Source of the DNA: a virus
IMG/VR virus record: IMGVR_UViG_3300020156_000023
Location: 36,411-100,410 of that record
Strand: one strand, 5' to 3'
DNA: 64,000 nucleotides
The position numbers and the translations under genes were made by a program. Positions 4,842 to 55,783 of the stretch are shown here, in pieces; position 1 is the stretch's first letter; every line of letters starts with the position of its first letter. The notes under the pieces are model-generated. The model saw only the letters and a list, made by a program, of their open reading frames with translations, was not told the DNA's origin and searched no databases.

Positions 4842-6542
4842 TTATTTTATAGGTTCTAATGTTGTTATATCTAATTCTTTACCTTCTTTATTATAAAGCT
4901 TACCACCTACCCATTTATAATTCTTTTTGATAATACCATTCAGATATTTATCTTTAAGTTCTGTAGTAGGAAGATTACTATATATTGAAGTACTCTTAAC
5001 CTGTTCTTCAGTAACCTTACCAGTTAACTTACCATTCATCATATCTACTTCAAAGTTAGGATACATTTGATTAAGTACATTACCAGTAACATTCCTTGTT
5101 TTCATTTGATTAAGGTCTCTACCTGTTTTCTGTAATCCAGTTCCCATAGTAGAAATATCTGATGCCAGTGCTGTAAAGTAAGCATCTTTATCTGCCCTAT
5201 CAGCAGCATCTCTTTGAGCTTCACCTGACATAACCATTCTATCCTGGTCATTTTCCATCATAGCTTCCTGACCCAATATACTTGCTATCTGTTGCATGTA
5301 CTGATTGTATATCTGAGACCTTGTATTATTAACTCCCATATCAGTAGCTAAATCAAGTGCTCTCATAGTATTAATACTCCTTGCACCATTCCTACCTCTA
5401 TTTATTGTAGCATTCCTTGCTAATTCTAAATCTTGTAGTTGACTATCTCTTACTCCACTTGCAAACCCTTTAGTCTGGTCCATCTTATCAATACCCTCCT
5501 TTCCATAGTTAAGGAAAGGATTTATATTAGGAGTATCAGAAGCTCTCATATTATTAGTGTTCCTCATAGGCCCAAATGTAGAAACTAAGTTTCCAAATAA
5601 ACCTACTGCATCTCCTGCAGTTATATTTAAAGCACCCATCCATGGACTTGTATTATCTCCTGTTGAAGCAACACCTGTAGGATTAGTTGATGGACTATAA
5701 GTAGTAGCAGGAGTACCTGTAGTACTAACTCCATAATCCATTGCATTATTACCTGTATGGAAATCATCTGTAGTACCAGTCATATTAAGACTAGGGTTCA
5801 TACTTGAGAATAACTTATTCCAATCCATATTCATAGGAGGCCATCCTGCTACACCACCTGTAGCAAACTGCTCTGCCTCAGAAACCATCTTAGCAAGTTG
5901 CATTACAGCCATATCTGACTGTTCTTTCTTTTCATTATTAGATTGTAATCTCTTGAGTGTCCTTAGTAAAGTAGCATCATTAGGATTCTTCTCTAATTGT
6001 TTCTCTATCTTAGATATTTTCTTTTCTCTCTCCAGTTTCCTCTCAGCCATAGTTTTACCATCTGAGCCTTTTATCTTCTTAGAAAATATCTCAGTACCTG
6101 AAGGTACTACCATATCAATACCACCTTCAGCATGAGAAGGACCTTTTAAAGTTCCTACAGCACCATTAGGTGTTTCTATTACTTCTTCCCCCTCAGCATT
6201 AATGGCAGTAGGTATCCCTACCTTACCTCCAGTAGCAAAGGAGCCTTGTGCATTACCATATGCACCTAAGGCTCCTACTCCTGTTTGTAATAGATTACCC
6301 CAATTAAACCCTCCTGAAGAGATACCTTCTCCTGCAGAGGCTCCTTTATTCATCATAGAGCCTCCATACTGCATAGCTAAGTTTCCTAATACTTTAGTAC
6401 CCATAGCCCATGGATTATTACTACCTGCTGCTTTAGCTTGAGCTAAAGCTATATTAGCTTCTGCTAAGTCAACACCTGGATTAGTAACATAAGTACCAAA
6501 TTCAAATTCAGGAAGTTTAATTTTCTTTCTATTCTTTTTCAT
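4842..6542 (-). CDS. Putative virion cargo protein
   Basis: 566 aa; FATGG repeats, AEGEEV and GPSHAEGG motifs, Gly-rich segments; directly after the muzzle gene. Confidence 0.6.
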   Translation of the reverse strand: MKKNRKKIKLPEFEFGTYVTNPGVDLAEANIALAQAKAAGSNNPWAMGTKVLGNLAMQYGGSMMNKGASAGEGISSGGFNWGNLLQTGVGALGAYGNAQGSFATGGKVGIPTAINAEGEEVIETPNGAVGTLKGPSHAEGGIDMVVPSGTEIFSKKIKGSDGKTMAERKLEREKKISKIEKQLEKNPNDATLLRTLKRLQSNNEKKEQSDMAVMQLAKMVSEAEQFATGGVAGWPPMNMDWNKLFSSMNPSLNMTGTTDDFHTGNNAMDYGVSTTGTPATTYSPSTNPTGVASTGDNTSPWMGALNITAGDAVGLFGNLVSTFGPMRNTNNMRASDTPNINPFLNYGKEGIDKMDQTKGFASGVRDSQLQDLELARNATINRGRNGARSINTMRALDLATDMGVNNTRSQIYNQYMQQIASILGQEAMMENDQDRMVMSGEAQRDAADRADKDAYFTALASDISTMGTGLQKTGRDLNQMKTRNVTGNVLNQMYPNFEVDMMNGKLTGKVTEEQVKSTSIYSNLPTTELKDKYLNGIIKKNYKWVGGKLYNKEGKELDITTLEPIK

Positions 6543-6572
6543 TTTAATCTTAATTATTTTTAATATTAAAGT

Positions 6573-43450: not shown

Positions 43451-44707
43451 ATGGAAGAAGTCACTATGACATCAGAAGTAGCAAGAGCACGTGAGGAAGG
43501 AAAGTACTCAGGAGCTCCTGAATTTGATGTGGACAGAGTTGCTAAAGAATTAGACGGAGTATTTCAGTCAGTATTAACTGGTAAAATAAGTACTTTAGAT
43601 AATGAAGCAAAGGTCCGTGTCTCAAAGTTTGAAGAAGAACTTGATGTAGCATTAAAAGTTTATGGAAAGGAAATTCAAACTATATTTCCTGAGATTAAGC
43701 AAAGATTGCTGGATGAGGTTATTAAAGGTAGAGCAGTTATAGTATTACCAGATAGTGCTGAAGTTGCTATATCACATATGGACCATCCAGAAATGGAAAA
43801 TGTTGTGAAATCATTGCATCTTCACAATAAGGCAATGCTTGTAGGCCCTGCAGGAACAGGTAAGACTACAATGATTGGTCATATTGCAGAAAGGAAAGGT
43901 TTACCCTTCTATAAATACTCTTGTTCAAGAGATTCTTCAGTACATGACCTATTAGGTTATAAGCAACCTGCTTCAGAGACATACTTAGAGACTTCATTTC
44001 TCAGATGTTATGAAGAAGGAGGTATATTCCTCGTAGATGAGTATGATGCTATGTCAGGAGATATGGCATTGTTCTTTAATGGCATTGCTGATAACTCTAA
44101 GTTCATATCTATACCACATAGAGATGATAAGCCTACTGCTCAAAAGCATAAGGATTTCTATCTTGTGATGTGTGGTAACACATGGGGTAAAGGTTCTACT
44201 GATTATTCAGGTAGGGACTTCCAGGATATGGCACTTATGGATAGGTTCAGGTTCTGCAGACACCATATTGGATACCATCATGCTCTTGAAAGAGAGTTAA
44301 TGCAGCACAATTATCCATTTGCTGTAGCATTAAGGGGAGCTCTTGAAAAAGTAGGAAGTTATTTATCTACACGTAATGTGGAAGATATATCCAGGCTTAT
44401 TCAATGTGATGTAGACCCTAAGTCTATAGTAGCTATGGTTACTCAGGATTTATCTGAACTAGATAAACCTGTTATATTAGAGGCTGTTAAGGACATAACT
44501 ATAAGGAAAGAGAAAATAACAGTTAAGTGTGAAAAGGGTGTAGAATATGTTCTTGATAAACTTATAGCTACTTATCCTTTGAATAATCCTGCCAAATTAG
44601 CAGAGCTTAAAGCAGGTAAACCAGTTCTATACTCTAACTATCTCGAAGCTATGTCTAAGATTAATGGACTATCTCCTTCAAGAGAAGGTATCCCAACTAA
44701 ACGTTAA
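43451..44707 (+). CDS. MoxR/CobS-like AAA+ ATPase
   Basis: GPAGTGKT, FLVDEYD, CGNT.G, QDMALMDRF, STR. Confidence 0.88.
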   Translation: MEEVTMTSEVARAREEGKYSGAPEFDVDRVAKELDGVFQSVLTGKISTLDNEAKVRVSKFEEELDVALKVYGKEIQTIFPEIKQRLLDEVIKGRAVIVLPDSAEVAISHMDHPEMENVVKSLHLHNKAMLVGPAGTGKTTMIGHIAERKGLPFYKYSCSRDSSVHDLLGYKQPASETYLETSFLRCYEEGGIFLVDEYDAMSGDMALFFNGIADNSKFISIPHRDDKPTAQKHKDFYLVMCGNTWGKGSTDYSGRDFQDMALMDRFRFCRHHIGYHHALERELMQHNYPFAVALRGALEKVGSYLSTRNVEDISRLIQCDVDPKSIVAMVTQDLSELDKPVILEAVKDITIRKEKITVKCEKGVEYVLDKLIATYPLNNPAKLAELKAGKPVLYSNYLEAMSKINGLSPSREGIPTKR

Positions 44708-44709
44708 CA

Positions 44710-45543
44710 ATGGAAAAGCCAGAATTTACATATAAGCTTCTTCCTTCTGGTACACATTTGGTAAGATTTGATGAGCTTCGTGAGATATATAAGTATGATG
44801 ACCCTGATTTTAATCCTACTGGTATATCTATTAGAGAGAAAACCAAAGAGGAGTATTTAGAACGTAATAGTCAGTATCTCAAGGAAAGACATATCCTAAC
44901 TCCTAAGAAACTCAAAATCATTGATGATGCACGTAAGGATATGGAACTTGATAAAGAGTTCTTAGATTTGGTATACAAAGCTAAGTCTCATAAAAGAGCA
45001 TTTGCTATGAATAAGTTTGGAGGAAATCTCTCCATGCCACACTATTCAACAGGTGCTGAGAAGGTCTTTAAAAGAGGACAGCCTGGTGCCAAGAAGATGA
45101 CCCTTAATTTAGCTTTTCAGGTAGGTACATTTACAGGAGGTAATTATACTCAATCATTTGTGCGTATCTTAAAGACAGTACTTATGTGTCAGGCAATGAA
45201 TATACAATTAAATATTGATGTGTTTGACTCTGACGAAACAGGTATTGACAATCATGATTCTTATGTAATATGTAATGTTGCAAAGTCTCATGAAAAGTTA
45301 AATATGCGTAATATACTAGCCTCATCACATCAAGAATTCTTTAGTACTACTTTATTTAATGGATATTCTGCAGCAGGAATGCCAGGGTTTATCAGTGGTT
45401 ATCTTGACCAACATCAAATAGTACAGGATTTGGGAGAGTATTATGATGTCATAGGTGGTAATATGCTTGTCAATAAGTTTAATGATGAGCAACAAGAGTT
45501 AGTAAGTAAAATCCTTAAAATTGGCCTCTATGGAAATGGGTAA
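44710..45543 (+). CDS. Putative degenerate VWA/CobT-like partner of the AAA ATPase
   Basis: Position after the MoxR-type ATPase; alpha/beta pattern; no intact DxSxS. Confidence 0.4.
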   Translation: MEKPEFTYKLLPSGTHLVRFDELREIYKYDDPDFNPTGISIREKTKEEYLERNSQYLKERHILTPKKLKIIDDARKDMELDKEFLDLVYKAKSHKRAFAMNKFGGNLSMPHYSTGAEKVFKRGQPGAKKMTLNLAFQVGTFTGGNYTQSFVRILKTVLMCQAMNIQLNIDVFDSDETGIDNHDSYVICNVAKSHEKLNMRNILASSHQEFFSTTLFNGYSAAGMPGFISGYLDQHQIVQDLGEYYDVIGGNMLVNKFNDEQQELVSKILKIGLYGNG

Positions 45544-46842: not shown

Positions 46843-48534
46843 ATGTCAAAATCAAATTCAACATTAGCTGGTAAATTAGGTTCTATACAACCTAAAGAAG
46901 GTTTAGTAGCTGCTAATAATGTACCTACCCCAGACACTAAGAACATACAAGGGTATGATGCATATAAGCAAGATAAGTGGTTAAGATTGTTAACAATGCT
47001 TAATGTACTTAAACTACAACCACAATATTACAGAAGTGAGAGGACAGCACTACAAGAGTTACAAACTCTTATCAAAGAATGTGCTACTGAAGATGCATAC
47101 TTCACATGTCAGTGTATAGTATGGTCAAGATGTTTAGGGGAAGGTATGAGAACTATTTCTCATGCTGCTTCTGTATTTGTAGCACCATACATTTCAGGAC
47201 AAGAGTTCTCTAAGAGGTTCTATGGACCATGGAACAAGAAAGAGAAAAAAGGTGGTGTGATTTATAGGCCAGATGATATGAATGAGATATTACAAGGTTT
47301 TGTAGCTCTAAATGGAGAATACAAAACTACAACTGTAACAAATCATACTACTGGTGTTTCAGACACTCAGGTAGATATCTCAGGTACAAAGTTAACTAAT
47401 GCTATGAAGAAAGGATTTAAAGCAGCCATTGAGAGTCTTGACTCTTATTCATTGCTTAAGTATAAGTCCTCTCTGATAGATGTTATAAACCTTGTACATC
47501 CTAAATCATCAGACTCTCAGGCTACAGTAGAGGTGGATGGAGAAACTGTCTATACTATTGATGCTATAATGAGAGGAATGAATGTTTCTGCTAATACTTG
47601 GGAAGTAAACCAAGGAGAGGCAGGTCAAATTGTTTCTAAAGCTGTCAAGGAAGGTAAAATCACTGAAGAGGAAGCTAAAGAGGTATTAACTCAAGCTAAA
47701 GCAGATAATTGGGAAGAGATGCTTAATGAAGGTAAATTACCTATATTAGCAACTCTTAGGAACTTAAGGAACATCCTTAAAACTAATCCTAAAAGTGAAA
47801 CAATTAAGAAATTGTGTGAACTTGTATCTAATCCTACCTTGTTAAGACAAGGTAAGATAATGCCATATCAGATTGATATGGCTAATGAGATTATGCTTAC
47901 TGAGTTTAGTGGCTCTACTGCAAGGACTGTATCTAAAGCTTTAGCTGAAGGTTATGAACTTGCTGTGCCTAATTTAGCAGAGTTATTACCAGGTAATAAT
48001 GTAGTGTTCTTAGATATGTCAAACTCTATGACTTGGCATAAAGTTAGGGTTAATGGTAAAGAAGGCTCTACTACTCCTGCAGATAAAGCATGTCTTATTG
48101 CTGCAACTATAGCTAAGGCTACTGGAGCTGATATTATGATATTTGGTACAAGTGCTAAGTATGTACAATATAACCCTAATACGGATGTATTTACATTAGC
48201 TAAGCAATTGAATAATGCCAATATGGGTGGTACTGATTTATCTACAGCGTGGAAATTAGCTAAATCATCAGGTAGGAAATATGATAGAGTATTTATCTTA
48301 TCTGATAATGAGGTTAACACAGGAAATACCTATAATGCTTATAGGGACTATATGAGTAATATGGGTAATCCGTATGTATATTCAGTAGACTTAGCAGGAT
48401 ATGGTACTAATGCTATTGCTGGGGATAAAGTAAGGTATTATTATGGGTATGGATTTGCTATGTTTGATGATATAGCAACTTCAGAGTTCAATCCAACTCA
48501 TCACATTGACAAAGTAAAACAAGTAATAATTTAA
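46843..48534 (+). CDS. rsr: Ro60/Rsr-like TROVE + VWA RNA-binding protein
   Basis: N-terminal N..G..AY..D...RL....N.L....YY, LLKY, DVI.L.HPK, ATLRNLRN, I.PYQ; C-terminal MIDAS DMSNS, GGTD, ILSDNE. Confidence 0.88.
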   Translation: MSKSNSTLAGKLGSIQPKEGLVAANNVPTPDTKNIQGYDAYKQDKWLRLLTMLNVLKLQPQYYRSERTALQELQTLIKECATEDAYFTCQCIVWSRCLGEGMRTISHAASVFVAPYISGQEFSKRFYGPWNKKEKKGGVIYRPDDMNEILQGFVALNGEYKTTTVTNHTTGVSDTQVDISGTKLTNAMKKGFKAAIESLDSYSLLKYKSSLIDVINLVHPKSSDSQATVEVDGETVYTIDAIMRGMNVSANTWEVNQGEAGQIVSKAVKEGKITEEEAKEVLTQAKADNWEEMLNEGKLPILATLRNLRNILKTNPKSETIKKLCELVSNPTLLRQGKIMPYQIDMANEIMLTEFSGSTARTVSKALAEGYELAVPNLAELLPGNNVVFLDMSNSMTWHKVRVNGKEGSTTPADKACLIAATIAKATGADIMIFGTSAKYVQYNPNTDVFTLAKQLNNANMGGTDLSTAWKLAKSSGRKYDRVFILSDNEVNTGNTYNAYRDYMSNMGNPYVYSVDLAGYGTNAIAGDKVRYYYGYGFAMFDDIATSEFNPTHHIDKVKQVII

Positions 48535-48546
48535 AAAAGTAGTCTT

Positions 48547-48960
48547 ATGTTTGTAGAATATAATGGCAAGACATATGCATTTAGATTTATGCATATCACA
48601 AAGGATGAGGCAGAATTCTCTCCTGAAGGTTTAATGATAATACCGAGGCAAACAGTTTGTTTGGTACAAGTTAAGGAGGGAGAGGATTGGAAAGACCTCA
48701 CAGTACAGACTCAGGAGGGTGATGTAATATCAGAACATGTTGTTGTTGGTATTGCAAGAGTACATCCTAATGACAAAAACTTTGTCAAAGAAATAGGTAG
48801 GCAAATCTCTTTAGGTAATGCTCTTAAGAAGTTTGTACCTAAGGAAGATAGAATTATGTTCTGGGAGACTTATAGGAACTGGAAAACATCCAAACCAAGG
48901 ATGTTATTATCTACCAATATGTCAGCAATAGAGACTTTACTTAAAGAATCTAAATCATGA
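48547..48960 (+). CDS. Conserved phage hypothetical protein
   Basis: G.AR.HP.D.NF.K..GR..SL..A motif. Confidence 0.6.
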   Translation: MFVEYNGKTYAFRFMHITKDEAEFSPEGLMIIPRQTVCLVQVKEGEDWKDLTVQTQEGDVISEHVVVGIARVHPNDKNFVKEIGRQISLGNALKKFVPKEDRIMFWETYRNWKTSKPRMLLSTNMSAIETLLKESKS

Positions 48961-49286
48961 GAATATTAGGAACTATATTTTGTATACTGCTGTTCATTGC
49001 AGCAGTATACTATAGTCTCGTAGGTACAGCAGGTAATGTTGAAACCTTAAAAGAGAGAGCACCTAAAGAGATGCCTGCCAGAGGTTGGGAAATTCTTAGA
49101 TATGAGGGTTTCCAGTATGGTAGTTATAATACACATGGTGGTTCTGTATGGTATCATGTTAGGGAAATAGAAAACCCTAATGTTCAATATAGGGTAAAAA
49201 TATCCTTATGGAATGATGAGCTGCAATATTACTATGGACAACCTGAGAAACTTATCAGGCATGAGGTAGAATATAAGAGTAAATAA
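48957..49286 (+). CDS. Membrane-anchored hypothetical protein
   Basis: N-terminal TM segment. Confidence 0.6.
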   Translation: MRILGTIFCILLFIAAVYYSLVGTAGNVETLKERAPKEMPARGWEILRYEGFQYGSYNTHGGSVWYHVREIENPNVQYRVKISLWNDELQYYYGQPEKLIRHEVEYKSK

Positions 49287-49312
49287 AAAACTTTAAAATA
49301 TTTAACCTGGCT

Positions 49313-49344
49313 CTTGCTGGGTTAAATATTTTTCTTTAACTTTG
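49313..49344 (+). promoter_or_regulatory. Bacteroidetes-type promoter heading the tmRNA/tRNA region
   Basis: CTTG, 20 nt, TAACTTTG; the -33 element sits at the centre of an inverted repeat (about 49295-49332). Confidence 0.65.
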
Positions 49345-49359
49345 CACAGGTTCTTTGAC

Positions 49360-49665
49360 ATGAAAACAATTATAATAGATACATCTTACTTTGTAAAGGT
49401 AAGACCATATGACCCCGTGTATCAATTAGCCTTATTTAAGTTAGTACAACGTAATAATAATGGGTTATGGCCAAGTGAGTTAATATGGACTACTGCCTAT
49501 GGAGCTAAGTACAGACTTAAGGAAATGAGTGATAGTCATGTAATTAATGCTCGTAGAAGATTGGAAGACCCTGTACAAGAGTTTCCAAAATATTGGGGTG
49601 GTGTAAGTAAAGAAAACTGGTTAATAGCTTTTACAGCAGAACTTATAAAAAGAAAACTAATATAA
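49360..49665 (+). CDS. Hypothetical protein
   Basis: ATG at 49360; W.T..G......EMSDSH..N motif. Confidence 0.6.
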   Translation: MKTIIIDTSYFVKVRPYDPVYQLALFKLVQRNNNGLWPSELIWTTAYGAKYRLKEMSDSHVINARRRLEDPVQEFPKYWGGVSKENWLIAFTAELIKRKLI

Positions 49666-50041
49666 GGGGGTGACTGGTTTTGACAGCTAAGAGTAGGTAA
49701 TAATATTCAGCAGTCAGTGATGACTTAAAACATTGAAGGTGAAATAATTAAATGGCAACATTGATAATACACAAGTAGAAGCTAACATGACTGTAGTACA
49801 CAACATATTAAATGGTGGTTCGTATGAAGGTCAACTCAAAGGAGAAGATGATTTAGTTACATCTAAAGGAACTTTTGTTAAAACAAATATGTTAGTAGCT
49901 GCCTAAGCTATAAATAGAAGAACACAACACATAGGGATTATGGATTACTAATGTTCCTCTCAATACATTAGAACAATAAGCTGTATACAATATTATTAGT
50001 TGAAAATAGTTTGGACAGGAGTTCGACTCTCCTCACCTCCA
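49666..50041 (+). ncRNA. ssrA: tmRNA
   Basis: 5' GGGGGTGACTGGTTTTGAC; 3' GACAGGAGTTCGACTCTCCTCACCTCCA; G3-U70; tag frame ending LVAA-stop (49754-49906). Confidence 0.92.
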
Positions 50042-50046
50042 CAAAT

Positions 50047-50121
50047 AGTACCTCAGCATATTTGGTGTATGACGCTACCCTGTCACGGTAGAGATTGCGG
50101 GTTCGAATCCCGTAGGTACTG
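50047..50121 (+). tRNA. tRNA-Asp(GTC)
   Basis: AGTACCT/AGGTACT acceptor; CTACC-ctGTCac-GGTAG. Confidence 0.85.
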
Positions 50122-50122
50122 C

Positions 50123-50209
50123 TAAAGAGTAGTAACACATAAGATACTTCGAAATCAAATTTTTACTTTGGCAATTCAAAAAACAATCTTATGTAATTTT
50201 CTCTCTTTA
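50123..50209 (+). ncRNA. Y-RNA-like element 1 (minimal)
   Basis: TAAAGAG/CTCTTTA, TAGTAAC loop, ACATAAGAT/ATCTTATGT, ACTTCG. Confidence 0.65.
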
Positions 50210-50217
50210 TTTTTAAT

Positions 50218-50289
50218 GCTGGATTAACTCAACGGTAGAGTACTTCACTTGTAATGAAGAGGTTATAAGTTCGAATCTTATATTCAGCT
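50218..50289 (+). tRNA. tRNA-Thr(TGT)
   Basis: Cloverleaf; CTTCA-ctTGTaa-TGAAG. Confidence 0.9.
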
Positions 50290-50310
50290 CAAACTTTTAA
50301 ATATATAATT

Positions 50311-50403
50311 ATGGAAGGTTTTATTGTAATACTTGCTGTTTTACTTTTTATAGGATTTGCTTTAACATTTAATGATGATGATTCAGGACCTCATATGACT
50401 TAA
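50311..50403 (+). CDS. Small membrane peptide (30 aa)
   Basis: MEGFIVILAVLLFIGFALTFNDDDSGPHMT. Confidence 0.45.
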   Translation: MEGFIVILAVLLFIGFALTFNDDDSGPHMT

Positions 50404-50411
50404 AATTAAAA

Positions 50412-50484
50412 GCCCTTGTAGCTTAAATGGAAAAGCCACACCCTTCTAAGGTGTTGAGTACAAGTTCGAATCTTGTCAGGGGTT
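50412..50484 (+). tRNA. tRNA-Arg(TCT)
   Basis: ACACC-ctTCTaa-GGTGT; T-arm. Confidence 0.88.
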
Positions 50485-50489
50485 CACAT

Positions 50490-50697
50490 AGAGTGGTTAG
50501 GAATAGGTTACTTCGTAAACAATATAAAGGCAGAGTCTTAGGACTCAGAGACTATATAAGTTTCAATTAACTACGTGTAGTAACACGTTGCGAAATGAGG
50601 TTAACTTATGGGTTACTTCAACTATAAGGGAAGTTATACTCCCTAAGAGTATAATGGTATGGCATTATCTATACAACCCTATTCCTTCATTCCCTCT
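50490..50697 (+). ncRNA. Y-RNA-like element 2 (multi-hairpin payload)
   Basis: AGAG/CTCT, TGGTT loop, AGGAATAGG/CCTATTCCT, TTACTTCG. Confidence 0.65.
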
Positions 50698-50703
50698 TAA
50701 AAT

Positions 50704-50779
50704 TGGTGTGTAGCATAGCCTGGCCTAATGCAGTAGACTGTTAATCTACCTATCGTAAGTTCGAATCTTACCACACCAG
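50704..50779 (+). tRNA. tRNA-Asn(GTT)
   Basis: GTAGA-ctGTTaa-TCTAC. Confidence 0.9.
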
Positions 50780-50785
50780 CAATTA

Positions 50786-50857
50786 GTCCTATTAGCTCAG
50801 GGGTAGAGCAGGAAGCTCATAACTTTCAGGCCATTGGTTCAAATCCAGTATAGGACA
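50786..50857 (+). tRNA. tRNA with CAT anticodon (elongator Met or Ile2)
   Basis: GGAAG-ctCATaa-CTTTC; identity cannot be resolved by eye. Confidence 0.8.
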
Positions 50858-50863
50858 CAATTT

Positions 50864-50937
50864 GCGTGCAGTAGCTCAATTGGTAGAGTAGTAGTCTCCA
50901 AAACTATTGGTTGTAGGTTCGAGTCCTACCTCACGTG
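50864..50937 (+). tRNA. tRNA-Trp(CCA)
   Basis: GTAGT-ctCCAaa-ACTAT; bulged C in the acceptor stem. Confidence 0.8.
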
Positions 50938-51048
50938 CTAATATCTGTTATTTTACCGATAATTCAATTTATCGTATAAATGACCGATAAACTAGTAGAT
51001 TAAGTTATTCTGTGGCTCTACAAGATGTGCACATCTACACGGAAGCAT

Positions 51049-51123
51049 GCATCCTTAACTCAGTCTGGCCAGAGTGTTTCCCTTACATGGAAAAAGTCCT
51101 AGGTTCGAATCCTAGAGGATGTA
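51049..51123 (+). tRNA. tRNA-Val(TAC)
   Basis: TTTCC-ctTACat-GGAAA. Confidence 0.88.
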
Positions 51124-51203
51124 CTAAATTTTATCGGTATGGAACTATTAATAGGCACAATGGTTTTAATTATACTTGCATTCATAGCGGGTATGTCAAG
51201 TAG

Positions 51204-51276
51204 GGACAGATAGCAAAGCAGGTCTATGCATTGGTCTGAAACACCAGGGATGAAGGTTCGAGTCCTTCTCTGTCCA
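51204..51276 (+). tRNA. tRNA-Phe(GAA)
   Basis: TTGGT-ctGAAac-ACCAG. Confidence 0.88.
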
Positions 51277-51277
51277 C

Positions 51278-51420
51278 AATACTAATAGTAAGACATTAAG
51301 TTACTTCGCAACACTTTTAATGTTAAGGTCATAGGTTCGAATCCTATACTATGTTTATACATGGTTAGCTCAGTTGGTAGAGCATAGAAAAATACACTTA
51401 AAGTCAAGTTCTTTAGTATT
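51278..51420 (+). ncRNA. Y-RNA-like element 3 with a circularly permuted tRNA-Lys(UUU)-like domain
   Basis: Shared scaffold; inside it the order is anticodon arm, T arm, closed acceptor stem, D arm. Confidence 0.8.
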
Positions 51421-51424
51421 AATT

Positions 51425-51507
51425 GGGATGTGAAAGCCATTTGGATATGGCAGCCTGACTGTAAATCAGGTCTTTTCGGGGGAGTGGTTCGAGTCCATCA
51501 CATCCCA
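51425..51507 (+). tRNA. tRNA-Tyr(GTA)
   Basis: CCTGA-ctGTAaa-TCAGG, variable arm. Confidence 0.85.
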
Positions 51508-51517
51508 CAATTATTCT

Positions 51518-51601
51518 AGCGTGGTAGTCAGTAGTTGGAAGCTTGTAAGGCTCATAACCTTATGTCGTAAGACCCCGTGAGTTCGAGTCTCACCCACGCT
51601 A
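51518..51601 (+). tRNA. tRNA-Met(CAT), initiator-like, with extra variable hairpin
   Basis: TAAGG-ctCATaa-CCTTA; GTC-gtaa-GAC in the variable region. Confidence 0.75.
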
Positions 51602-51613
51602 CAATAATCTTTT

Positions 51614-51689
51614 AGAGTAATGGACTAAATGGGTAAGTCACTTGCTTTGGGAGCAAGGTATCATGCAGGTTCGAATCCTGCTTACTCTA
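51614..51689 (+). tRNA. tRNA-Pro(TGG)
   Basis: CTTGC-ttTGGga-GCAAG. Confidence 0.88.
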
Positions 51690-51705
51690 CTAAATTTTTA
51701 TTATT

Positions 51706-51900
51706 ATGAATTATATTGAACAAGAAATTCAAGAAGCATTAGAAACTCAGCTTACTCTAATTAGAGCTGTTATTGCTAATGATGAATTAAGAAAATTAAA
51801 TGCTGAGGCTATAAAACTATCTTATGACAGTTTTATAGAGCAAGGATTTAGTAATGATGATGCTATTAGGTTAGTTTGTGCATCTATCAAAAAAGTCTAA
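51706..51900 (+). CDS. Hypothetical protein
   Basis: 64 aa; Y..F...GF....A..L motif. Confidence 0.65.
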   Translation: MNYIEQEIQEALETQLTLIRAVIANDELRKLNAEAIKLSYDSFIEQGFSNDDAIRLVCASIKKV

Positions 51901-51910
51901 TCAGACAGAT

Positions 51911-51984
51911 TCCTCTATGGCCAAATTGGTTAAGGCACCTCACTTTTAATGAGGGGATTTCAAGTTCGAGTCTTGATGGAGGAA
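51911..51984 (+). tRNA. tRNA-Lys(TTT)
   Basis: CCTCA-ctTTTaa-TGAGG. Confidence 0.9.
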
Positions 51985-51991
51985 CAACAAT

Positions 51992-52065
51992 GCCCTTGTA
52001 GCCCAACTGGTAGAGGCAATAGATTTAGGCTCTATGTAGTGAGAGTTCGAATCTCTCTGAGGGTA
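51992..52065 (+). tRNA. tRNA-Leu(TAG), short variable loop
   Basis: ATAGA-ttTAGgc-TCTAT. Confidence 0.8.
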
Positions 52066-52067
52066 CT

Positions 52068-52155
52068 AAAATTTATATCGTGGGTAGTAATAAACTCACT
52101 GAGTCTTGCAGGACTCGGAAGATTTCACTGCAATGAAATGATAGATATAAATTTT
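52068..52155 (+). ncRNA. Candidate four-way-junction RNA
   Basis: 12-bp closing stem around three hairpins. Confidence 0.45.
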
Positions 52156-52168
52156 TAATTTAAAATAT

Positions 52169-52242
52169 GCCCCTGTAATCCAATTGGCAGAGATAAAGGT
52201 CTTAAACACCTTCCAGTTTTGGTTCGAATCCAAATAGGGGTA
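52169..52242 (+). tRNA. tRNA-Leu(TAA), short variable loop
   Basis: AAGGT-ctTAAac-ACCTT. Confidence 0.82.
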
Positions 52243-52250
52243 CAAATTAT

Positions 52251-52334
52251 AGTAGGTATCTGGCAGGATGAAGAGCTTGTCTTGAAAACAAGTATTGGGT
52301 AATACCAATGGGAGTTCGAGTCTCCCACCTACTA
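52251..52334 (+). tRNA. tRNA-Ser(TGA)
   Basis: CTTGT-ctTGAaa-ACAAG, long variable arm; weak D arm. Confidence 0.78.
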
Positions 52335-52338
52335 CAAA

Positions 52339-52461
52339 TATCCTGAACCTCTGAATCTACGAAATAGTGTTGCTTTGTAGTAACATGTTTAGTTAAGTAG
52401 AGTATACTCAGATAAGCTCAGCAGGATAGTACAAGATATAAAGAGGTTGAAAGTCTTGTAC
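52339..52461 (+). ncRNA. Candidate pseudoknotted RNA
   Basis: TATCCTG/CAGGATA, GTACAAGA/TCTTGTAC and crossing AACCTCT/AGAGGTT. Confidence 0.55.
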
Positions 52462-52467
52462 ATTTAT

Positions 52468-52554
52468 AGAGGATAGGTAGATATTGGTTTGCTACACTTA
52501 CCTGCTAAGTAAGACTTGGTTAAACAAGTGAGGGTTCAATTCCCTTGTCCTCTG
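52468..52554 (+). tRNA. tRNA-Ser(GCT)
   Basis: CTTAC-ctGCTaa-GTAAG, variable arm, G73. Confidence 0.85.
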
Positions 52555-52560
52555 CAATAT

Positions 52561-52633
52561 ACAGATATAGCTCAATTGGTGGAGCATCTCACTGATACTG
52601 AGAAGGCTATAGGTTCAAGTCCTATTATCTGTA
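52561..52633 (+). tRNA. tRNA-Ile(GAT)
   Basis: TCTCA-ctGATac-TGAGA. Confidence 0.88.
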
Positions 52634-52685
52634 CTAAGATTCCAAATTATTTTGTAGTTTGGAATCTCTTCTTTATCTTTACATC

Positions 52686-53102
52686 ATGGAAACAAAAATA
52701 TGTAGCAAATGTAAAGAAGATTTACCAGTTGAACAATTTTCAACTAAAAAAGGTAAACTACAGAGTTATTGTAAGTCTTGTCACAAAGAGTATAGACAAC
52801 AACATTATATTGACAATAAACAAAAATATATTGATAAAGCTGCTCAATATAGGAAAGAGTTTTATAAATGGTTTGAAGAACTTAAGAAAACTTTAAAATG
52901 TCAATCTTGCGGAGAAGATAGATATTGGGTTCTTGATTTTCACCATATTGATTCACAAACTAAAGATAATGAAGTTTCTAATTTAGTTAATACTTGTAGT
53001 AAAACTAAGGTATTAGAAGAGATTGATAAGTGTAAGGTATTATGTAGTAATTGTCATAGAGATTTACATTATCAAGAAAAACAAATGCAGTATATAGCTT
53101 AA
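52686..53102 (+). CDS. HNH endonuclease with N-terminal Zn finger
   Basis: CSKC, CKSC, CQSC, LDFHH, CSNCH; ATG at 52686 follows a promoter-like TATCTTTA. Confidence 0.85.
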   Translation: METKICSKCKEDLPVEQFSTKKGKLQSYCKSCHKEYRQQHYIDNKQKYIDKAAQYRKEFYKWFEELKKTLKCQSCGEDRYWVLDFHHIDSQTKDNEVSNLVNTCSKTKVLEEIDKCKVLCSNCHRDLHYQEKQMQYIA

Positions 53103-53158
53103 CTGGTAAAGCACTGGTCTTCCAAATCAGGGATGCAGTTCGAATCTGATATGCTGCT
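53087..53158 (+). tRNA. tRNA-Gly(TCC), atypical acceptor/T stems
   Basis: CTGGT-ctTCCaa-ATCAG; U73. Confidence 0.7.
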
Positions 53159-53172
53159 CAAAAATTAATATT

Positions 53173-53322
53173 ATGGTTAAAACAGTTATTAATGGGAATG
53201 AATGTTACATCTATATGAATGGTTCTTTGATTCATAAAACAAGATGTGATAATTCACAATCAGGTGTTACATTTGATGTAATGGCTTACAGAAAGAATGA
53301 TAGTCTCAGTACTATAAAGTAA
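53173..53322 (+). CDS. Hypothetical protein (49 aa)
   Basis: MVKTVINGNECYIYMNGSLIHK... Confidence 0.5.
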   Translation: MVKTVINGNECYIYMNGSLIHKTRCDNSQSGVTFDVMAYRKNDSLSTIK

Positions 53323-53326
53323 AAAT

Positions 53327-53402
53327 GCTGCTTTCGTCTAAATTGGAATAGGACACCACCCTTTCAAGGTGGGTAATGCGAGTTCGAGTCTCGTAGGCAG
53401 TA
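53327..53402 (+). tRNA. tRNA-Glu(TTC)
   Basis: CCACC-ctTTCaa-GGTGG. Confidence 0.9.
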
Positions 53403-53408
53403 CAAAAT

Positions 53409-53501
53409 GCCAGGGTAACTCAGGAAGATTAGAGTGCCTAACATATATTAGGAGTAAAATCTTAAGTTAGGAAGTCGGAGGTTCAAGTCCTTCTCCTGGT
53501 A
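53409..53501 (+). ncRNA. tRNA-like RNA with extended arm and no anticodon loop
   Basis: Intact acceptor, D and T arms; CCTAAC/GTTAGG encloses 23 nt. Confidence 0.7.
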
Positions 53502-53515
53502 CAAATACATATTAT

Positions 53516-53776
53516 ATGGAAACATTATTAGACAGTAATGAGATACAACGCGTGGTATTTCATTACAACAAGAAACACAATGAAGATGTAACAATCCCTT
53601 GTTGGGTGGTAAAACACAAAGGTGCAACTTATTATGTTAATCATCTAGACTCTGAGGTAGGATTTACTACTAAAGAAACTCCAGATAATGAGCATACTAA
53701 AGGAGCCCTACAATTCAGGGGAAAATTAATGATAGTAAAAGAAAATGGAATTACAACAGCTATCATTAGGAACTAA
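53516..53776 (+). CDS. Hypothetical protein
   Basis: 86 aa; FHYNK, TKETPDNEHTKG. Confidence 0.65.
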   Translation: METLLDSNEIQRVVFHYNKKHNEDVTIPCWVVKHKGATYYVNHLDSEVGFTTKETPDNEHTKGALQFRGKLMIVKENGITTAIIRN

Positions 53777-53783
53777 AATTAAA

Positions 53784-53987
53784 ATGAAACTTGAGCAACC
53801 CACATTTATATGCTCAGGTAGAGATGTAAAAGAGTGTTACTATAGAGGTACTATAGTAGGTAAAAATGAGAATGATATAATTGAGATATCCTTCAAATAT
53901 AAAGGTAATTTTATAGTAGGCCACTATAATATTATATTAGAGCATTTTATGGAGGAATATCTAAGAGATATTAAAATTATATCATAA
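53784..53987 (+). CDS. Hypothetical protein
   Basis: Non-overlapping ATG at 53784. Confidence 0.5.
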   Translation: MKLEQPTFICSGRDVKECYYRGTIVGKNENDIIEISFKYKGNFIVGHYNIILEHFMEEYLRDIKIIS

Positions 53988-54001
53988 GTTAATTAGAAGA
54001 A

Positions 54002-54159
54002 GCGCGAGTGGCTGGTTGGAATAAGCGAGTAGGTTGCAAGCCTACTGGATATCTGAAAAGAGTTTATAATGATAATATTAAACAGAAAAAGAGTAAAATC
54101 TTGGGTTAATAGTATAGTTATAAATCGTGTCCATGGAGGTTCGAATCCTTCCTTGCGCT
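54002..54159 (+). tRNA. tRNA-Cys(GCA)-like with 89-nt variable-region insertion
   Basis: GCGCGAG/CTTGCGC, U73, GTAGG-ttGCAag-CCTAC, T arm GGAGG-ttcgaat-CCTTC. Confidence 0.75.
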
Positions 54160-54180
54160 CAACACAGAAGAAATGTTATA

Positions 54181-54335
54181 AACAGTAGTGATAGTTAAGT
54201 TACTTCGAAATCCATCACAAGGAAGAGATTGTCAGTTCGAGTCTGGCCCCCTGCACTAAATATAACGTCATGCAGGGGTAGGGTAATTGGTTAGCCCGCT
54301 TAAAAGAAAACAACACTTAACTTATATTCTCTGTT
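54181..54335 (+). ncRNA. Y-RNA-like element 4 with a circularly permuted tRNA-like domain
   Basis: AACAG/CTGTT, AGTTAAGT/ACTTAACT, TACTTCG; T arm, CCCCTGCA/TGCAGGGG, D arm. Confidence 0.8.
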
Positions 54336-54340
54336 AATTT

Positions 54341-54413
54341 GGGCTTGGAGCATGACTGGTTATGCACTACACTTGCACTGTAGGGTATGTGAGTTCGAAT
54401 CTCATCAGGTCCA
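54341..54413 (+). tRNA. tRNA-Ala(TGC)
   Basis: G3-U70; CTACA-ctTGCac-TGTAG. Confidence 0.9.
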
Positions 54414-54534
54414 CAACATGTTAAGTTTTCTTTGTTTTCACAAAACAAAGTGGTGGAATGGCCTTATTGATTTATGGCCCCAAAAGGTAGTTTCTCTTTC
54501 TCCCTTCATTAATTTGTAAATTGAAAGAGTACAA

Positions 54535-54606
54535 TGCTCCTTAGTATAATTGGTAGTACACTTGACTTTGGCTCAGGTAGTATTGGTTCGAACCCAGTAG
54601 GAGTAA
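54535..54606 (+). tRNA. tRNA-Gln(TTG)
   Basis: CTTGA-ctTTGgc-TCAGG. Confidence 0.88.
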
Positions 54607-54626
54607 CTAATTTAAAATTAAAAAAG

Positions 54627-54881
54627 ATGCGTAAATATGTTTTATTGGTATTGTTAGTTTTAACAACTCTTTGTTCATCTTGTACAGATAATCAAAGAGC
54701 AAGACAATGGGGTGGAACTGAGGAAATAATTCTTCCTAAGAATCATGTCCTTATAACAGCCACATGGAAAAATGATGAAATGTGGATACTTACAAAAGAT
54801 ACTGTAACAGATATCAATTATTTTAAAGAGAAATCTAATTGGGGTGTTTTAGAGGGAACTGTAATTTTCAAAAATAAATAA
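54627..54881 (+). CDS. Lipoprotein
   Basis: MRKYVLL...SSCTDNQRAR.WGG; the track start overlaps tRNA-Gln and was moved. Confidence 0.7.
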   Translation: MRKYVLLVLLVLTTLCSSCTDNQRARQWGGTEEIILPKNHVLITATWKNDEMWILTKDTVTDINYFKEKSNWGVLEGTVIFKNK

Positions 54882-54884
54882 ATT

Positions 54885-55067
54885 ATGCGTAAATTCTATC
54901 CATGGATACCAATAATTGGTATCTTTTTAGTGGCAGGATTATCTTGTAAAGAAGATAGTTCTAAGTTTTATGAGACAAGGCTTAATGAGCCTATGGTCTT
55001 CTGTCTAAGTGCTATAGTACAAGCTGTAGTAGTAGTGGGTTTAGGAATCCTTATAACTTTTAGTTAA
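54885..55067 (+). CDS. Small membrane protein
   Basis: Two hydrophobic segments. Confidence 0.55.
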   Translation: MRKFYPWIPIIGIFLVAGLSCKEDSSKFYETRLNEPMVFCLSAIVQAVVVVGLGILITFS

Positions 55068-55075
55068 AAACACAT

Positions 55076-55148
55076 GGTGGCTATAGTGTTAATGGTAACA
55101 TGCTTGATTGTGGTTCAAGAGTTTTGAGTTCGAATCTCAATAGTCACC
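55076..55148 (+). tRNA. tRNA-His(GTG)
   Basis: G-1:C73; CTTGA-ttGTGgt-TCAAG. Confidence 0.9.
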
Positions 55149-55167
55149 CTATTAAAACCAATTTATT

Positions 55168-55578
55168 ATGAAAAAAGTTTTTTGCACAATTGTGCTTGCA
55201 GTAAGTCTTCTTACTTCATGTCAACCAGAGTCTCCTATCTCTGAGAATCCTTCAAACACTGAATCAGTATACACTTCTTATCAAAGAGAAGAAACTCCTT
55301 TAGTTGTAGTTGAGGAGACTGCTACAGATGTAACTGCTCCAGGATATGTTATTATATATCCACCATTAGAACCTAATGGTAATGAGTATCATATAATCAT
55401 TGATTGTATGGATAAAGGTACAATTGATGGAGATACTCTTGTAAGATATGGTTATGGTACAGGACAGGATGGGAAAAAGTTTATGATAAAAGCTACTACT
55501 TATTACATGCCTAGATTTGGAAAATTCTTTACTAAGTACGAGAGTGTGGCAATACCACCATCTGAGTATGGTTGTTAA
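55168..55578 (+). CDS. Lipoprotein
   Basis: Lipobox LTSC. Confidence 0.65.
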   Translation: MKKVFCTIVLAVSLLTSCQPESPISENPSNTESVYTSYQREETPLVVVEETATDVTAPGYVIIYPPLEPNGNEYHIIIDCMDKGTIDGDTLVRYGYGTGQDGKKFMIKATTYYMPRFGKFFTKYESVAIPPSEYGC

Positions 55579-55602
55579 TTAAAGATATTCTTTGTATCTT
55601 TG
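55572..55602 (+). promoter_or_regulatory. Bacteroidetes-type promoter
   Basis: TTG, 20 nt, TATCTTTG. Confidence 0.55.
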
Positions 55603-55675
55603 TAATATAAAAGCTTTGCCAAGTTAGTATCCATATAAAGAAAAACTTGAGGAACTAACCAAAGCTTTTTAAAAT

Positions 55676-55746
55676 GACTCTGTAGTATAACGGTAGTGCT
55701 TAGGTCTGCAACACCTAAAGTTCTGGTTCGAATCCAGATGGAGTCT
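55676..55746 (+). tRNA. tRNA-Cys(GCA)
   Basis: TAGGT-ctGCAac-ACCTA; U73. Confidence 0.85.
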
Positions 55747-55783
55747 CGACTTTATGTCAGGTATAGAAATTGGTAGGGAGTTT

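What the first reader, a model, noticed from the sequence alone, without database searches (positions are those of the whole stretch)
46843..54335. Candidate phage Ro60 (TROVE) system with four modular Y-like RNAs hidden in the tRNA array
Seen: a TROVE+VWA gene (46843-48534) lies upstream of a tmRNA/tRNA cluster. Four inter-tRNA segments (50123-50209, 50490-50697, 51278-51420, 54181-54335) share one architecture: a 4-8 bp end-to-end stem, a 5' internal-loop strand TAGTAAC/TGGTT/TAGTAA/TAGTGAT opposite a 3' strand ending TTCT/TTCC, an 8-10 bp stem, an invariant TACTTCG, a variable payload, and an A-rich AC linker. The stem sequences differ between copies but the pairing is kept, so the copies covary. 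Known: Ro60/Rsr binds the bulged terminal stem of Y RNAs, whose other end is an effector module, and bacterial YrlA RNAs mimic tRNA. Inference: one phage Ro60 is loaded with four RNAs carrying different effector modules. TACTTCG differs from the GNCGAA motif of described YrlA, so this may be a separate family. No RtcB or RtcA is present in the window.
Basis: partly seen in the sequence, partly recalled or inferred. Interest (0 to 1): 0.95.

Follow-up and report, generated by a model that had tools for sequence, protein, structure and literature searches.

The report
Phage Ro60 with four partner RNAs
A crAss-like phage encodes its own Ro60 ring protein and, between its tRNA genes, four small RNAs built on one conserved "handle". 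The same handle lies beside Ro60 genes in dozens of phages and in Bacteroidota bacteria, so it looks like an uncatalogued branch of the known Y RNA family.

Summary
The gene at 46843-48534 is a full-length Ro60 homologue (TROVE + vWA). Four RNAs (50123-50209, 50490-50697, 51278-51420, 54181-54335) share one handle: outer stem, bulged U, two conserved pairs (RG:CY), asymmetric internal loop, inner stem, invariant UUACUUC(G). Their interiors differ.

A covariance model built from five short copies found 88 more in 49 related phage Ro60 loci, all on the Ro60 strand. Pairing is 91% against 62% in shuffles, with 330 compensatory cells.

An RNA-seeded scan of IMG/VR gave the converse. All 9 newly found, model-confirmed contigs that are at least 50% complete carry a Ro60 gene. 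The 13 without one are fragments of 18% or less.

The handle also lies just upstream of chromosomal Ro60 genes in Saprospiraceae and Chitinophagales. It was found in none of 79 sampled genomes that lack Ro60. It also follows the TROVE gene of the cultured phage crAss001.

Two window RNAs carry a closed, permuted tRNA-like domain as in YrlA. One is minimal, like YrlB. One carries about 160 nt with no known relative.

My reading is a lineage-specific, multi-copy variant of the Ro60/Y-RNA particle. It is absent from Rfam and from the papers I could search. Binding is inferred, not shown. Other agents of this scan noted the same handle in other genomes.

The parts
46843..48534 (+). Ro60 homologue: TROVE HEAT-repeat ring plus vWA domain with a conserved DxSxS (MIDAS-type) motif
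   Evidence: Pfam TROVE and vWA_Ro60 match. phrog_850 'RNA-binding protein' matches at E 2e-34. A profile of four homologues hits the solved Thermus phage Ro60 (9KOP) at E 5e-19 over nearly its full length, and also Xenopus Ro60 (1YVP) and Deinococcus Rsr (2NVO). D391, S393 and S395 are invariant in alignment A3.
50123..50209 (+). Y-like RNA 1: the handle with a 33-nt A/U-rich loop (minimal, YrlB-like). It fills the spacer between tRNA-Asp and tRNA-Thr.
   Evidence: Descriptor hit. Scores 80.6 bits with R1 and 71.6 bits with R2. Fold z-score -2.8.
50490..50697 (+). Y-like RNA 2: the TGGT/TTCC variant of the handle with a ~160-nt multi-hairpin interior that has no known relative. It fills the spacer between tRNA-Arg and tRNA-Asn.
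   Evidence: Descriptor hit. R2 scores 46.3 bits over 50486-50703. Fold z-score -4.8. A copy at the same position in L001 (13774-13990) keeps the handle, but its interior does not align.
51278..51420 (+). Y-like RNA 3: the handle plus a closed, permuted tRNA-like domain. The order is a hairpin with the loop CUUUUAA (that of the phage tRNA-Lys), T arm, closed acceptor hairpin, D arm. It fills the spacer between tRNA-Phe and tRNA-Tyr.
   Evidence: Descriptor hit. R2 scores 57.8 bits. Rfam YrlA scores 34.9 bits (E 2e-6 locally) over the T arm, acceptor hairpin and D arm only.
54181..54335 (+). Y-like RNA 4: the handle plus a second closed, permuted tRNA-like domain built on a different body (T arm, 8-bp closed hairpin with a 15-nt loop, D arm). 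It ends 5 nt before tRNA-Ala.
   Evidence: Descriptor hit. R2 scores 75.7 bits. The fold shows the three hairpins. There is no Rfam YrlA hit.
49666..55747 (+). Context: a tmRNA and a 24-tRNA array on the same strand, in which the four RNAs occupy whole inter-tRNA spacers. The flanking tRNAs probably set their ends.
   Evidence: ARAGORN and Rfam calls. Spacer boundaries were read from the sequence.

Best explanation
The four RNAs are Y-RNA-type partners of the phage's own Ro60 protein.

They are transcribed with the tmRNA and tRNA array. tRNA-processing enzymes acting on the flanking tRNAs probably cut them out. This leaves molecules whose 5' and 3' ends pair.

The shared handle is the Ro60-docking module. 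It consists of an outer stem, a bulged U, the RG:CY pairs, an asymmetric internal loop, an inner stem and UUACUUC(G). The variable interior is the effector module. Two interiors are closed tRNA mimics as in YrlA, one is almost empty as in YrlB, and one is a ~160-nt domain of unknown partner.

By analogy with Deinococcus Rsr-Yrn1-PNPase and Thermus phage phiLo Ro60-Yrl-PNPase, the particles would tether Ro60 to host RNA-handling enzymes, or gate its cavity, early in infection.

What is shown: the RNA family is real, covaries, and is tied to Ro60 genes. What is inferred: binding, processing and the downstream effect.
For: 1. The protein is a full-length Ro60 homologue.

2. The handle is a structured RNA under selection. 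In 62 copies, 91% of cells pair against 62% in shuffles, 330 cells are compensatory against 94, and slid controls give 48-58%. The bulged U, the G of RG, UUACUUC and the 3' UUC are invariant or nearly so.

3. It is linked to Ro60. In 49 phage loci with Ro60 26-73% identical to this one, all 88 R1 hits at E <= 0.1 are on the Ro60 strand. My descriptor gives 134 hits on that strand against 22 on the other, with a median distance of 708 nt, in 43 of 49 loci.

4. The converse holds. The RNA-seeded scan gave 53 contigs. Seven are chance pattern matches with no model hit. Of the 46 confirmed, 33 carry Ro60, including all 9 newly found contigs that are at least 50% complete. The other 13 are fragments of 18% or less.

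5. Ro60 is the only protein shared by these loci.

6. Bacterial chromosomes show the same pairing. Tandem copies lie directly upstream of Ro60 without any tRNA array (L113, L153). In two whole genomes the only hits are those beside Ro60. Seventy-nine sampled Ro60-less genomes gave no hit.

7. Segments 3 and 4 have the T arm, closed acceptor hairpin and D arm in the order solved for YrlA (10.1101/312249).

8. In the cultured phage crAss001, three copies fill the unannotated gap just after its TROVE gene gp96. The TROVE gene is among that phage's early genes (PMC8375218).
Against: - No experiment shows that these RNAs accumulate or bind the protein.
- The published Ro60 motif GNCGAAN0-1G is not present as such. 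The invariant UUACUUC lies at the inner end of the handle, not at the outer stem where YrlA has its motif.
- Segment 4 lies 5.6 kb from the gene.
- In some relatives the handle encloses what look like complete normal-order tRNAs, one with an encoded CCA (L003 3285-3421, csAssE-Sib). The interior may therefore sometimes be cargo rather than an effector module.
- The alignment used for the pair counts was fitted to the model, which inflates pairing somewhat.
Confidence: 0.8

Rival explanations
1. The handle is a leader-trailer duplex that marks tRNA or tRNA-like cargo for Ro60-assisted folding, quality control or maturation. On this view the interior is a substrate that is released, not an effector module, and the minimal copies are empty or regulatory forms.
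For: In L003 the handle encloses a normal-order tRNA body. ARAGORN calls it a tRNA (3314-3389) and CCA follows its acceptor 3' strand. In csAssE-Sib two handles enclose the annotated tRNA-Tyr and tRNA-Lys. ARAGORN also calls tRNAs inside handles in L001 and L002. Of 98 interiors with a T arm, 42 carry an anticodon-like arm, with many different triplets.
Against: The two tRNA-like interiors in this window have closed acceptor hairpins and cannot be charged as they stand. About a third of all copies have no cargo. The window already encodes a full tRNA set outside the handles. Known Ro60 biology has Y RNAs as stable partners.
Confidence: 0.1
2. The elements are processing punctuation or spacer structures of tRNA operons. 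They would be recognised by RNases or by another factor, and would lie near Ro60 genes only because Ro60 genes tend to sit next to tRNA arrays.
For: All four exactly fill inter-tRNA spacers. Ro60 genes of unrelated actinophages also sit in tRNA arrays.
Against: The handle occurs beside Ro60 without any tRNA array: L002, crAss001 and the bacterial loci L113 and L153. It is missing from the tRNA arrays beside the actinophage Ro60 genes, apart from one marginal 19.9-bit hit. In whole bacterial genomes with dozens of tRNA genes, it hits only next to Ro60.
Confidence: 0.04
3. The elements are decayed or rearranged tRNA genes (pseudogenes), and their shared features are relics.
For: Segment 3 scores 30.2 bits with the Rfam tRNA model, just over its cut-off of 29. 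T and D arms are present.
Against: The handle is not a tRNA feature, and it shows strong compensatory change with invariant single-stranded bases across Ro60 proteins down to 26% identity. Minimal copies have no tRNA part at all.
Confidence: 0.02

Closest known systems
Bacterial and mycobacteriophage YrlA Y RNAs with Rsr/Ro60 (Rfam RF02553; Chen et al. 2014, PMC4201824; YrlA structure, bioRxiv 10.1101/312249)
   Same: Both are encoded beside a Ro60 gene on the same strand. The 5' and 3' ends pair into a stem, asymmetric internal loop and second stem. The distal domain is a circularly permuted tRNA mimic with T arm, closed acceptor hairpin and D arm (segments 3 and 4). Rfam YrlA hits segment 3 at 34.9 bits, much like its sub-threshold hits beside actinophage Ro60 genes (31.5 and 31.7 bits).
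   Different: The handle sequence differs: bulged U, RG:CY and UUACUUC(G) instead of GNCGAAN0-1G at the outer stem. The YrlA model does not align to the handle at all. There is an extra anticodon-like hairpin before the T arm. Genomes carry four to about seven copies rather than one or two. The copies are embedded in a tRNA array. Interiors can also be normal-order tRNA bodies, a ~160-nt domain, or nothing.
YrlB of Salmonella and Mycobacterium (a small second Y RNA without a tRNA-like domain; PMC4201824)
   Same: Segment 1, and about a third of all copies, are the Ro60-type stem with only a short loop. They are encoded next to a tRNA-mimic sibling. The tandem 'minimal plus tRNA-like' arrangement upstream of bacterial Ro60 in L113 and L153 mirrors yrlB-yrlA.
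   Different: There is no sequence relation that I could test. YrlB orthologues were reported only in Salmonella serovars.
Thermus phage phiLo Ro60 with Yrl1 and Yrl2 (PMC12135203; PDB 9KOP, 9L5Y)
   Same: A phage-encoded Ro60 with more than one phage-encoded Y-like RNA, a stem-bulge-stem layout and a CGAA core motif. It is the closest solved relative of this protein (E 5e-19). That system forms a complex with host PNPase, which suggests a mechanism here.
   Different: phiLo has two RNAs upstream of the gene, not inside a tRNA array. No tRNA-mimic interiors are described. The handle consensus found here is not reported there.
Metazoan Y RNAs and Deinococcus Yrn1
   Same: A modular design: a Ro60-binding bulged terminal helix plus a distal effector loop or domain.
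   Different: No sequence similarity was detected. The Rfam Y_RNA model gives no hit at E <= 10.

Membership tests
Y RNA (functional class: non-coding RNA bound by Ro60) | Physically bound by the Ro60 protein | not testable with these tools
   Needs immunoprecipitation or a gel-shift assay. Only genomic linkage is shown here.
Y RNA (functional class: non-coding RNA bound by Ro60) | Encoded next to the Ro60 gene on the same strand (bacterial and phage members) | tested here: met
   The four copies lie 1.6-5.6 kb downstream on the same strand. All 88 R1 hits in 49 phage loci, and all 68 in 66 bacterial loci, are on the Ro60 strand.
Y RNA (functional class: non-coding RNA bound by Ro60) | The 5' and 3' ends pair into a bulged or internally looped stem, with a distinct distal module | tested here: met
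   Shown by the folds and by covariation over 62 copies.
YrlA (Rfam RF02553) | Score at or above the curated gathering score of 69 bits | tested here: not met
   Segment 3 scores 34.9 bits. Segments 1, 2 and 4 have no YrlA hit at E <= 10. None of 11 bacterial loci reaches the gathering score.
YrlA (Chen et al. 2014) | GNCGAAN0-1G motif near the 5' end | tested here: not met
   The sequence is UUACUUCG(N)AA. The first G of the motif is U and the trailing G is absent. The CGAA core is present in segments 1 and 4, and CGNAA in segments 2 and 3. It lies after the inner stem, not in the outer stem.
YrlA (Chen et al. 2014; bioRxiv 10.1101/312249) | tRNA-like domain in the order T arm, closed acceptor hairpin, D arm | tested here: met
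   Met for segments 3 and 4. Not met for segments 1 and 2, which have no such domain.
YrlA (Chen et al. 2014) | Within 4 kb of the Ro60 orthologue on the same strand | tested here: met
   Segments 1-3 start 1.6, 2.0 and 2.7 kb after the gene. Segment 4 is at 5.6 kb, outside that criterion.
tRNA | Cloverleaf in normal order with an open acceptor stem | tested here: not met
   ARAGORN calls none of the four. The Rfam tRNA hit on 51295-51355 scores 30.2 bits with the D arm deleted. The acceptor-like helices of segments 3 and 4 are closed hairpins.

The most novel reading that the evidence does not exclude
The handle is a general Ro60 'display tag'. With it, phages and Bacteroidota present interchangeable tRNA look-alikes, including anticodon-arm copies such as the Lys-UUU loop of segment 3. 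Ro60 particles carrying them would act as decoys or sensors for host tRNA-cleaving defences. Alternatively, they would chaperone handle-flanked tRNAs into service. Either way, phage Ro60 would be a counter-defence or tRNA-supply device rather than a general RNA-decay adaptor.
Probability: 0.15. Interest if true: 0.85.

Novelty: new variant of a known kind. Interest (0 to 1): 0.62.

Why it matters
Ro60 and its Y RNAs are conserved from bacteria to humans, yet their function is poorly understood, and in phages it is almost unknown.

This family gives a precise, searchable Ro60-linked RNA handle. It has invariant bases that can be mutated and natural variants with nothing, a tRNA mimic or a large domain attached. 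It is present in a cultured, transcriptomically studied gut phage (crAss001) and in cultured Neolewinella species.

That makes three questions directly testable: what Ro60 recognises, what the variable modules recruit, and why phages place them in tRNA operons.

It also corrects annotation. Some annotated phage 'tRNA genes' sit inside these handles, and gaps beside TROVE genes hold unannotated RNA genes.

Tried and rejected
- Rfam at E <= 10 on the region and on each tRNA-like segment. Only tRNA and tmRNA hits and the one sub-threshold YrlA hit appeared. There was no ribozyme, riboswitch or Y_RNA match.
- Covariance search with filters off lost the long copies, probably through a limit on hit length, so I used the default filters.
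- A loose regular-expression search on TAC[TA]TC[GT] plus one helix was swamped by chance hits. I replaced it with a full descriptor.
- Aligning the large interiors of segment-2-type copies from seven loci gave no conserved structure. They are heterogeneous even between syntenic copies.
- An alternative hairpin between AGUAA and UUACU (exact complements). By my count from the column tallies, up to 19 of the 62 copies carry a change that would break it, and UUACU never varies, so there is no support. I dropped it.
- Other proteins as the conserved partner. The neighbouring ORFs recur only in the one to three closest relatives.
- RtcB and RtcA are absent from the whole genome.
- The supplement of Chen et al. 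2014 and two Wolin-laboratory reviews are not held. I therefore could not check whether any Bacteroidota copy was already listed there.
- The order-level genome scan scores only 42 candidates per genome under stricter filters. Its zero hits in 79 Ro60-less genomes are supportive, not exhaustive.


Full report
WHAT IS THERE

The window is the right-hand 64 kb of a 100,410-bp IMG/VR virus record judged 100% complete. Its major head protein is 58.5% identical to that of the crAss-like Flavobacterium phages of the FpV4 group. Its portal and terminase match phage families. It is therefore a crAss-like phage, probably of a Bacteroidota host.

The ORF at 46843-48534 (+) matches Pfam TROVE and vWA_Ro60 and phrog_850 'RNA-binding protein'. 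A profile of this protein and three homologues matches the solved Thermus phage phiLo Ro60 (9KOP) at E 5e-19 over almost the whole length. It also matches Xenopus Ro60 and Deinococcus Rsr. The vWA DxSxS motif is invariant among the four homologues.

Three small ORFs follow the gene, then a tmRNA (49666-50044) and 24 tRNA genes up to 55747, all on the + strand.

THE FOUR RNAS

TACTTCG occurs four times on the + strand, once in each named segment. About one match is expected by chance in the whole window on both strands.

The elements are recovered three ways:
- Minimum-free-energy folds reproduce the outer stem, internal loop and inner stem in each.
- The second covariance model (R2) scores them 71.6, 46.3, 57.8 and 75.7 bits and finds nothing else in the window at E <= 1.

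Each element fills a whole spacer between two tRNA genes. This suggests that the enzymes which cut the neighbouring tRNAs set its ends. That step is inferred.

THE HANDLE

Related loci make the consensus clear. From 5' to 3' it runs:
- an outer stem of 4-8 bp;
- a bulged U;
- two conserved pairs, in which AG or GG pairs with CU or CC. This is why TAGT goes with TTCT and TGGT with TTCC;
- an asymmetric internal loop, about 4 nt on the 5' side and 6-7 A/U-rich nt on the 3' side;
- an inner stem of 7-11 bp;
- the single-stranded UUACUUC(G), usually followed by (N)AA;
- the variable interior;
- an A-rich linker leading back into the 3' strands.

Compensatory cells number 330 against 94. Structures slid by 1-3 columns pair at only 48-58%. 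Sixteen of the 18 pairs show changes on both sides. That alignment was fitted to the model, which inflates the numbers somewhat. An independent MAFFT/RNAalifold alignment of five copies already had 12 of 18 pairs compensatory.

LINK TO RO60, BOTH DIRECTIONS

Starting from the protein, I fetched 49 IMG/VR loci whose Ro60 is 26-73% identical to this one. Model R1 found 88 hits at E <= 0.1, every one on the Ro60 strand. My descriptor found 134 hits on that strand against 22 on the other. The median distance from the gene is 708 nt, and 43 of 49 loci have at least one hit.

Starting from the RNA, an exact-pattern scan of IMG/VR gave 53 contigs. Seven have no hit with either model and are chance pattern matches. 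Of the 46 confirmed contigs, 33 carry a Ro60 homologue. These include all nine newly found contigs that are at least 50% complete. The 13 without a homologue are fragments of 18% completeness or less.

Ro60 is the only protein shared across these loci.

NOT PHAGE-ONLY

Sixty-six loci in bacterial genomes encode Ro60 about 30% identical to this one. Most are Saprospiraceae, and they include cultured Neolewinella isolates. They gave 68 R1 hits at E <= 1, all on the Ro60 strand and mostly within a few hundred bases upstream, often in tandem.

- L113 lies on a 303-kb Chitinophagales contig with no tRNA array. It has a minimal copy followed by a copy with a classical permuted tRNA domain, directly upstream of the gene.
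- L153 has two minimal copies and one tRNA-like copy.
- In two whole genomes (2.8 and 6.0 Mb), the only hits at E <= 0.01 are those beside Ro60.
- In a sample of 80 further genomes of the same order, 79 lack Ro60 and none gave a hit. The one other genome with Ro60 has a weak hit beside the gene.

The boundaries of the family are as follows. The handle model finds nothing beside the Ro60 genes of a Gordonia phage and a Vibrio phage, and only a marginal 19.9-bit hit in an Arthrobacter phage. It hits strongly (44.8 bits) beside the Ro60 gene of a 634-kb uncultured phage.

CULTURED SYSTEMS

In Bacteroides phage crAss001, three hits fill the unannotated gap immediately after the TROVE gene gp96. 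The TROVE gene is reported among that phage's early genes, expressed within 10 minutes of infection (PMC8375218). The paper mentions no partner RNA.

In phage csAssE-Sib, three hits lie directly upstream of the annotated 'Ro sixty-related protein'. Two of them enclose the annotated tRNA-Tyr and tRNA-Lys.

THE INTERIORS

- Segments 3 and 4 carry a T arm, a closed acceptor-like hairpin and a D arm in that order. This is the arrangement solved for Salmonella YrlA (10.1101/312249). Segment 3 also has a hairpin before the T arm whose 7-nt loop, CUUUUAA, equals the anticodon loop of the phage's own tRNA-Lys.
- Segment 1 is minimal (33 nt), like YrlB.
- Segment 2 holds about 160 nt of hairpins with no Rfam relative. 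It does not align with the interior of the syntenic copy in the closest relative, although the handles align well.

Syntenic spacers in L001 carry the same handle with interiors of different size:
- Asp-Thr spacer: 33 nt here, 69 nt there.
- Spacer before tRNA-Ala: 108 nt here, 24 nt there.

The interior therefore turns over while the handle is kept.

Across all copies, about a third are minimal and most of the rest carry a T arm. Of the 98 with a T arm, 42 also have an anticodon-like arm, with many different triplets. These classes come from crude pattern matching and are approximate.

COMPARISON WITH WHAT IS KNOWN

Chen et al. 2014 (PMC4201824) described YrlA RNAs near Ro60 in 254 bacteria and 22 phages. 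They are defined by a GNCGAAN0-1G motif near the 5' end and a tRNA-like domain. That study discarded hits overlapping tandem tRNA genes and reported only hits within 4 kb of the gene. The 2025 phiLo study (PMC12135203) showed that a phage Ro60 binds two phage Y-like RNAs with a 'CGAA motif' and forms a complex with host PNPase.

The present RNAs share the layout of those RNAs, and two of the four share the tRNA mimic. The handle sequence differs, however. The Rfam YrlA model aligns only to the tRNA-like part of segment 3 (34.9 bits against a gathering score of 69). It gives no hit on the other three. It gave no hit at the gathering score in 11 bacterial loci that carry the handle.

The sub-threshold result needs a caveat. 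Rfam YrlA also stays below threshold (31.5 and 31.7 bits) beside the actinophage Ro60 genes. A sub-threshold score is therefore weak evidence of separateness. The stronger points are the distinct handle consensus and the mutual blindness of the two models.

I found no paper in the held library that describes this handle. I could not read the supplement of Chen et al. or the Wolin-laboratory reviews.

VERDICT

The RNA family is real, strongly supported and widespread. It is a lineage-specific, multi-copy, modular variant of the Ro60/Y-RNA system. It is new as a catalogued family but not new in kind. That the protein binds the handle is an inference from linkage and analogy, to which I give about 0.8.

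The main open question is what the interiors do. The handle-enclosed normal-order tRNAs in relatives keep alive the idea that some interiors are cargo or decoys rather than tethers.

EARLIER NOTES OF THIS SCAN

After reaching these results I looked at earlier notes. Other agents reported the same handle beside Ro60 genes in several other phage genomes and in Bacteroidota, and reached the same reading. Those notes are not independent evidence. My own tests agree with them.

Noticed in passing
window 52067-52168: The spacer between tRNA-Leu(UAG) and tRNA-Leu(UAA) folds into a clover-shaped RNA (12-bp closing stem, three hairpins; z-score -4.7). Its first hairpin loop holds UAGUAAU and its second is GAGUC-loop-GACUC. 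Both modules also occur inside the interior of segment 2. It has no UUACUUC and is not hit by the handle models.
   Followed up: partly
window 52336-52467; L001 15699-15861: The spacer between the two tRNA-Ser genes is a structured RNA closed by AUCCUG/CAGGAU and followed by a 9-bp hairpin. The syntenic Ser-Ser spacer of the closest relative starts and closes with the same sequences. There is no Rfam match.
   Followed up: partly
window 53409-53502: A tRNA-shaped RNA (Rfam tRNA 40.5 bits; ARAGORN 'tRNA-???') with normal acceptor, D and T arms. Its anticodon arm is extended and has no standard 7-nt anticodon loop.
   Followed up: partly
window 54000-54162: A tRNA-Cys-like gene (GCA loop, good acceptor and T arms) with an ~88-nt structured insert in the variable-arm position, just upstream of segment 4. 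Neither ARAGORN nor Rfam calls it. A normal tRNA-Cys lies at 55676.
   Followed up: partly
window 52659-53102: An HNH endonuclease ORF (phrog_2255, E 3e-39) sits inside the tRNA array. crAss001 also has an HNH gene next to a tRNA near its TROVE gene.
   Followed up: no
window 43451-45543: A MoxR-like AAA+ ATPase (AAA_5) and a 277-aa ORF lie 2 kb upstream of the Ro60 gene. They recur only in the two closest relatives, so they are probably not part of the system.
   Followed up: partly
L173 (MH675552.1 crAss001) 5810-6716; L174 (OR575929.1) 7459-7882: The unannotated 0.9-kb gap after crAss001 gp96 holds three handle RNAs and a 144-nt tRNA-like hit (Rfam tRNA 46.6 bits, L173 6084-6227). In csAssE-Sib, the annotated tRNA-Tyr and tRNA-Lys lie inside handle RNAs.
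   Followed up: partly
L131, L144, L149, L150 (Saprospiraceae and Saprospirales MAG contigs): Arrays of roughly 13-25 tRNA hits lie directly upstream of the Ro60 gene on contigs binned as bacterial. These may be large phages or mobile elements binned into the MAGs rather than chromosomes.
   Followed up: no
L175 (Gordonia phage Rabbitrun), L177 (Arthrobacter phage Atuin): Ro60 genes of unrelated actinophages also sit in or beside tRNA arrays and have only sub-threshold Rfam YrlA hits next to them (31.5 and 31.7 bits). The Ro60-tRNA-array association is broader than the family described here.
   Followed up: partly
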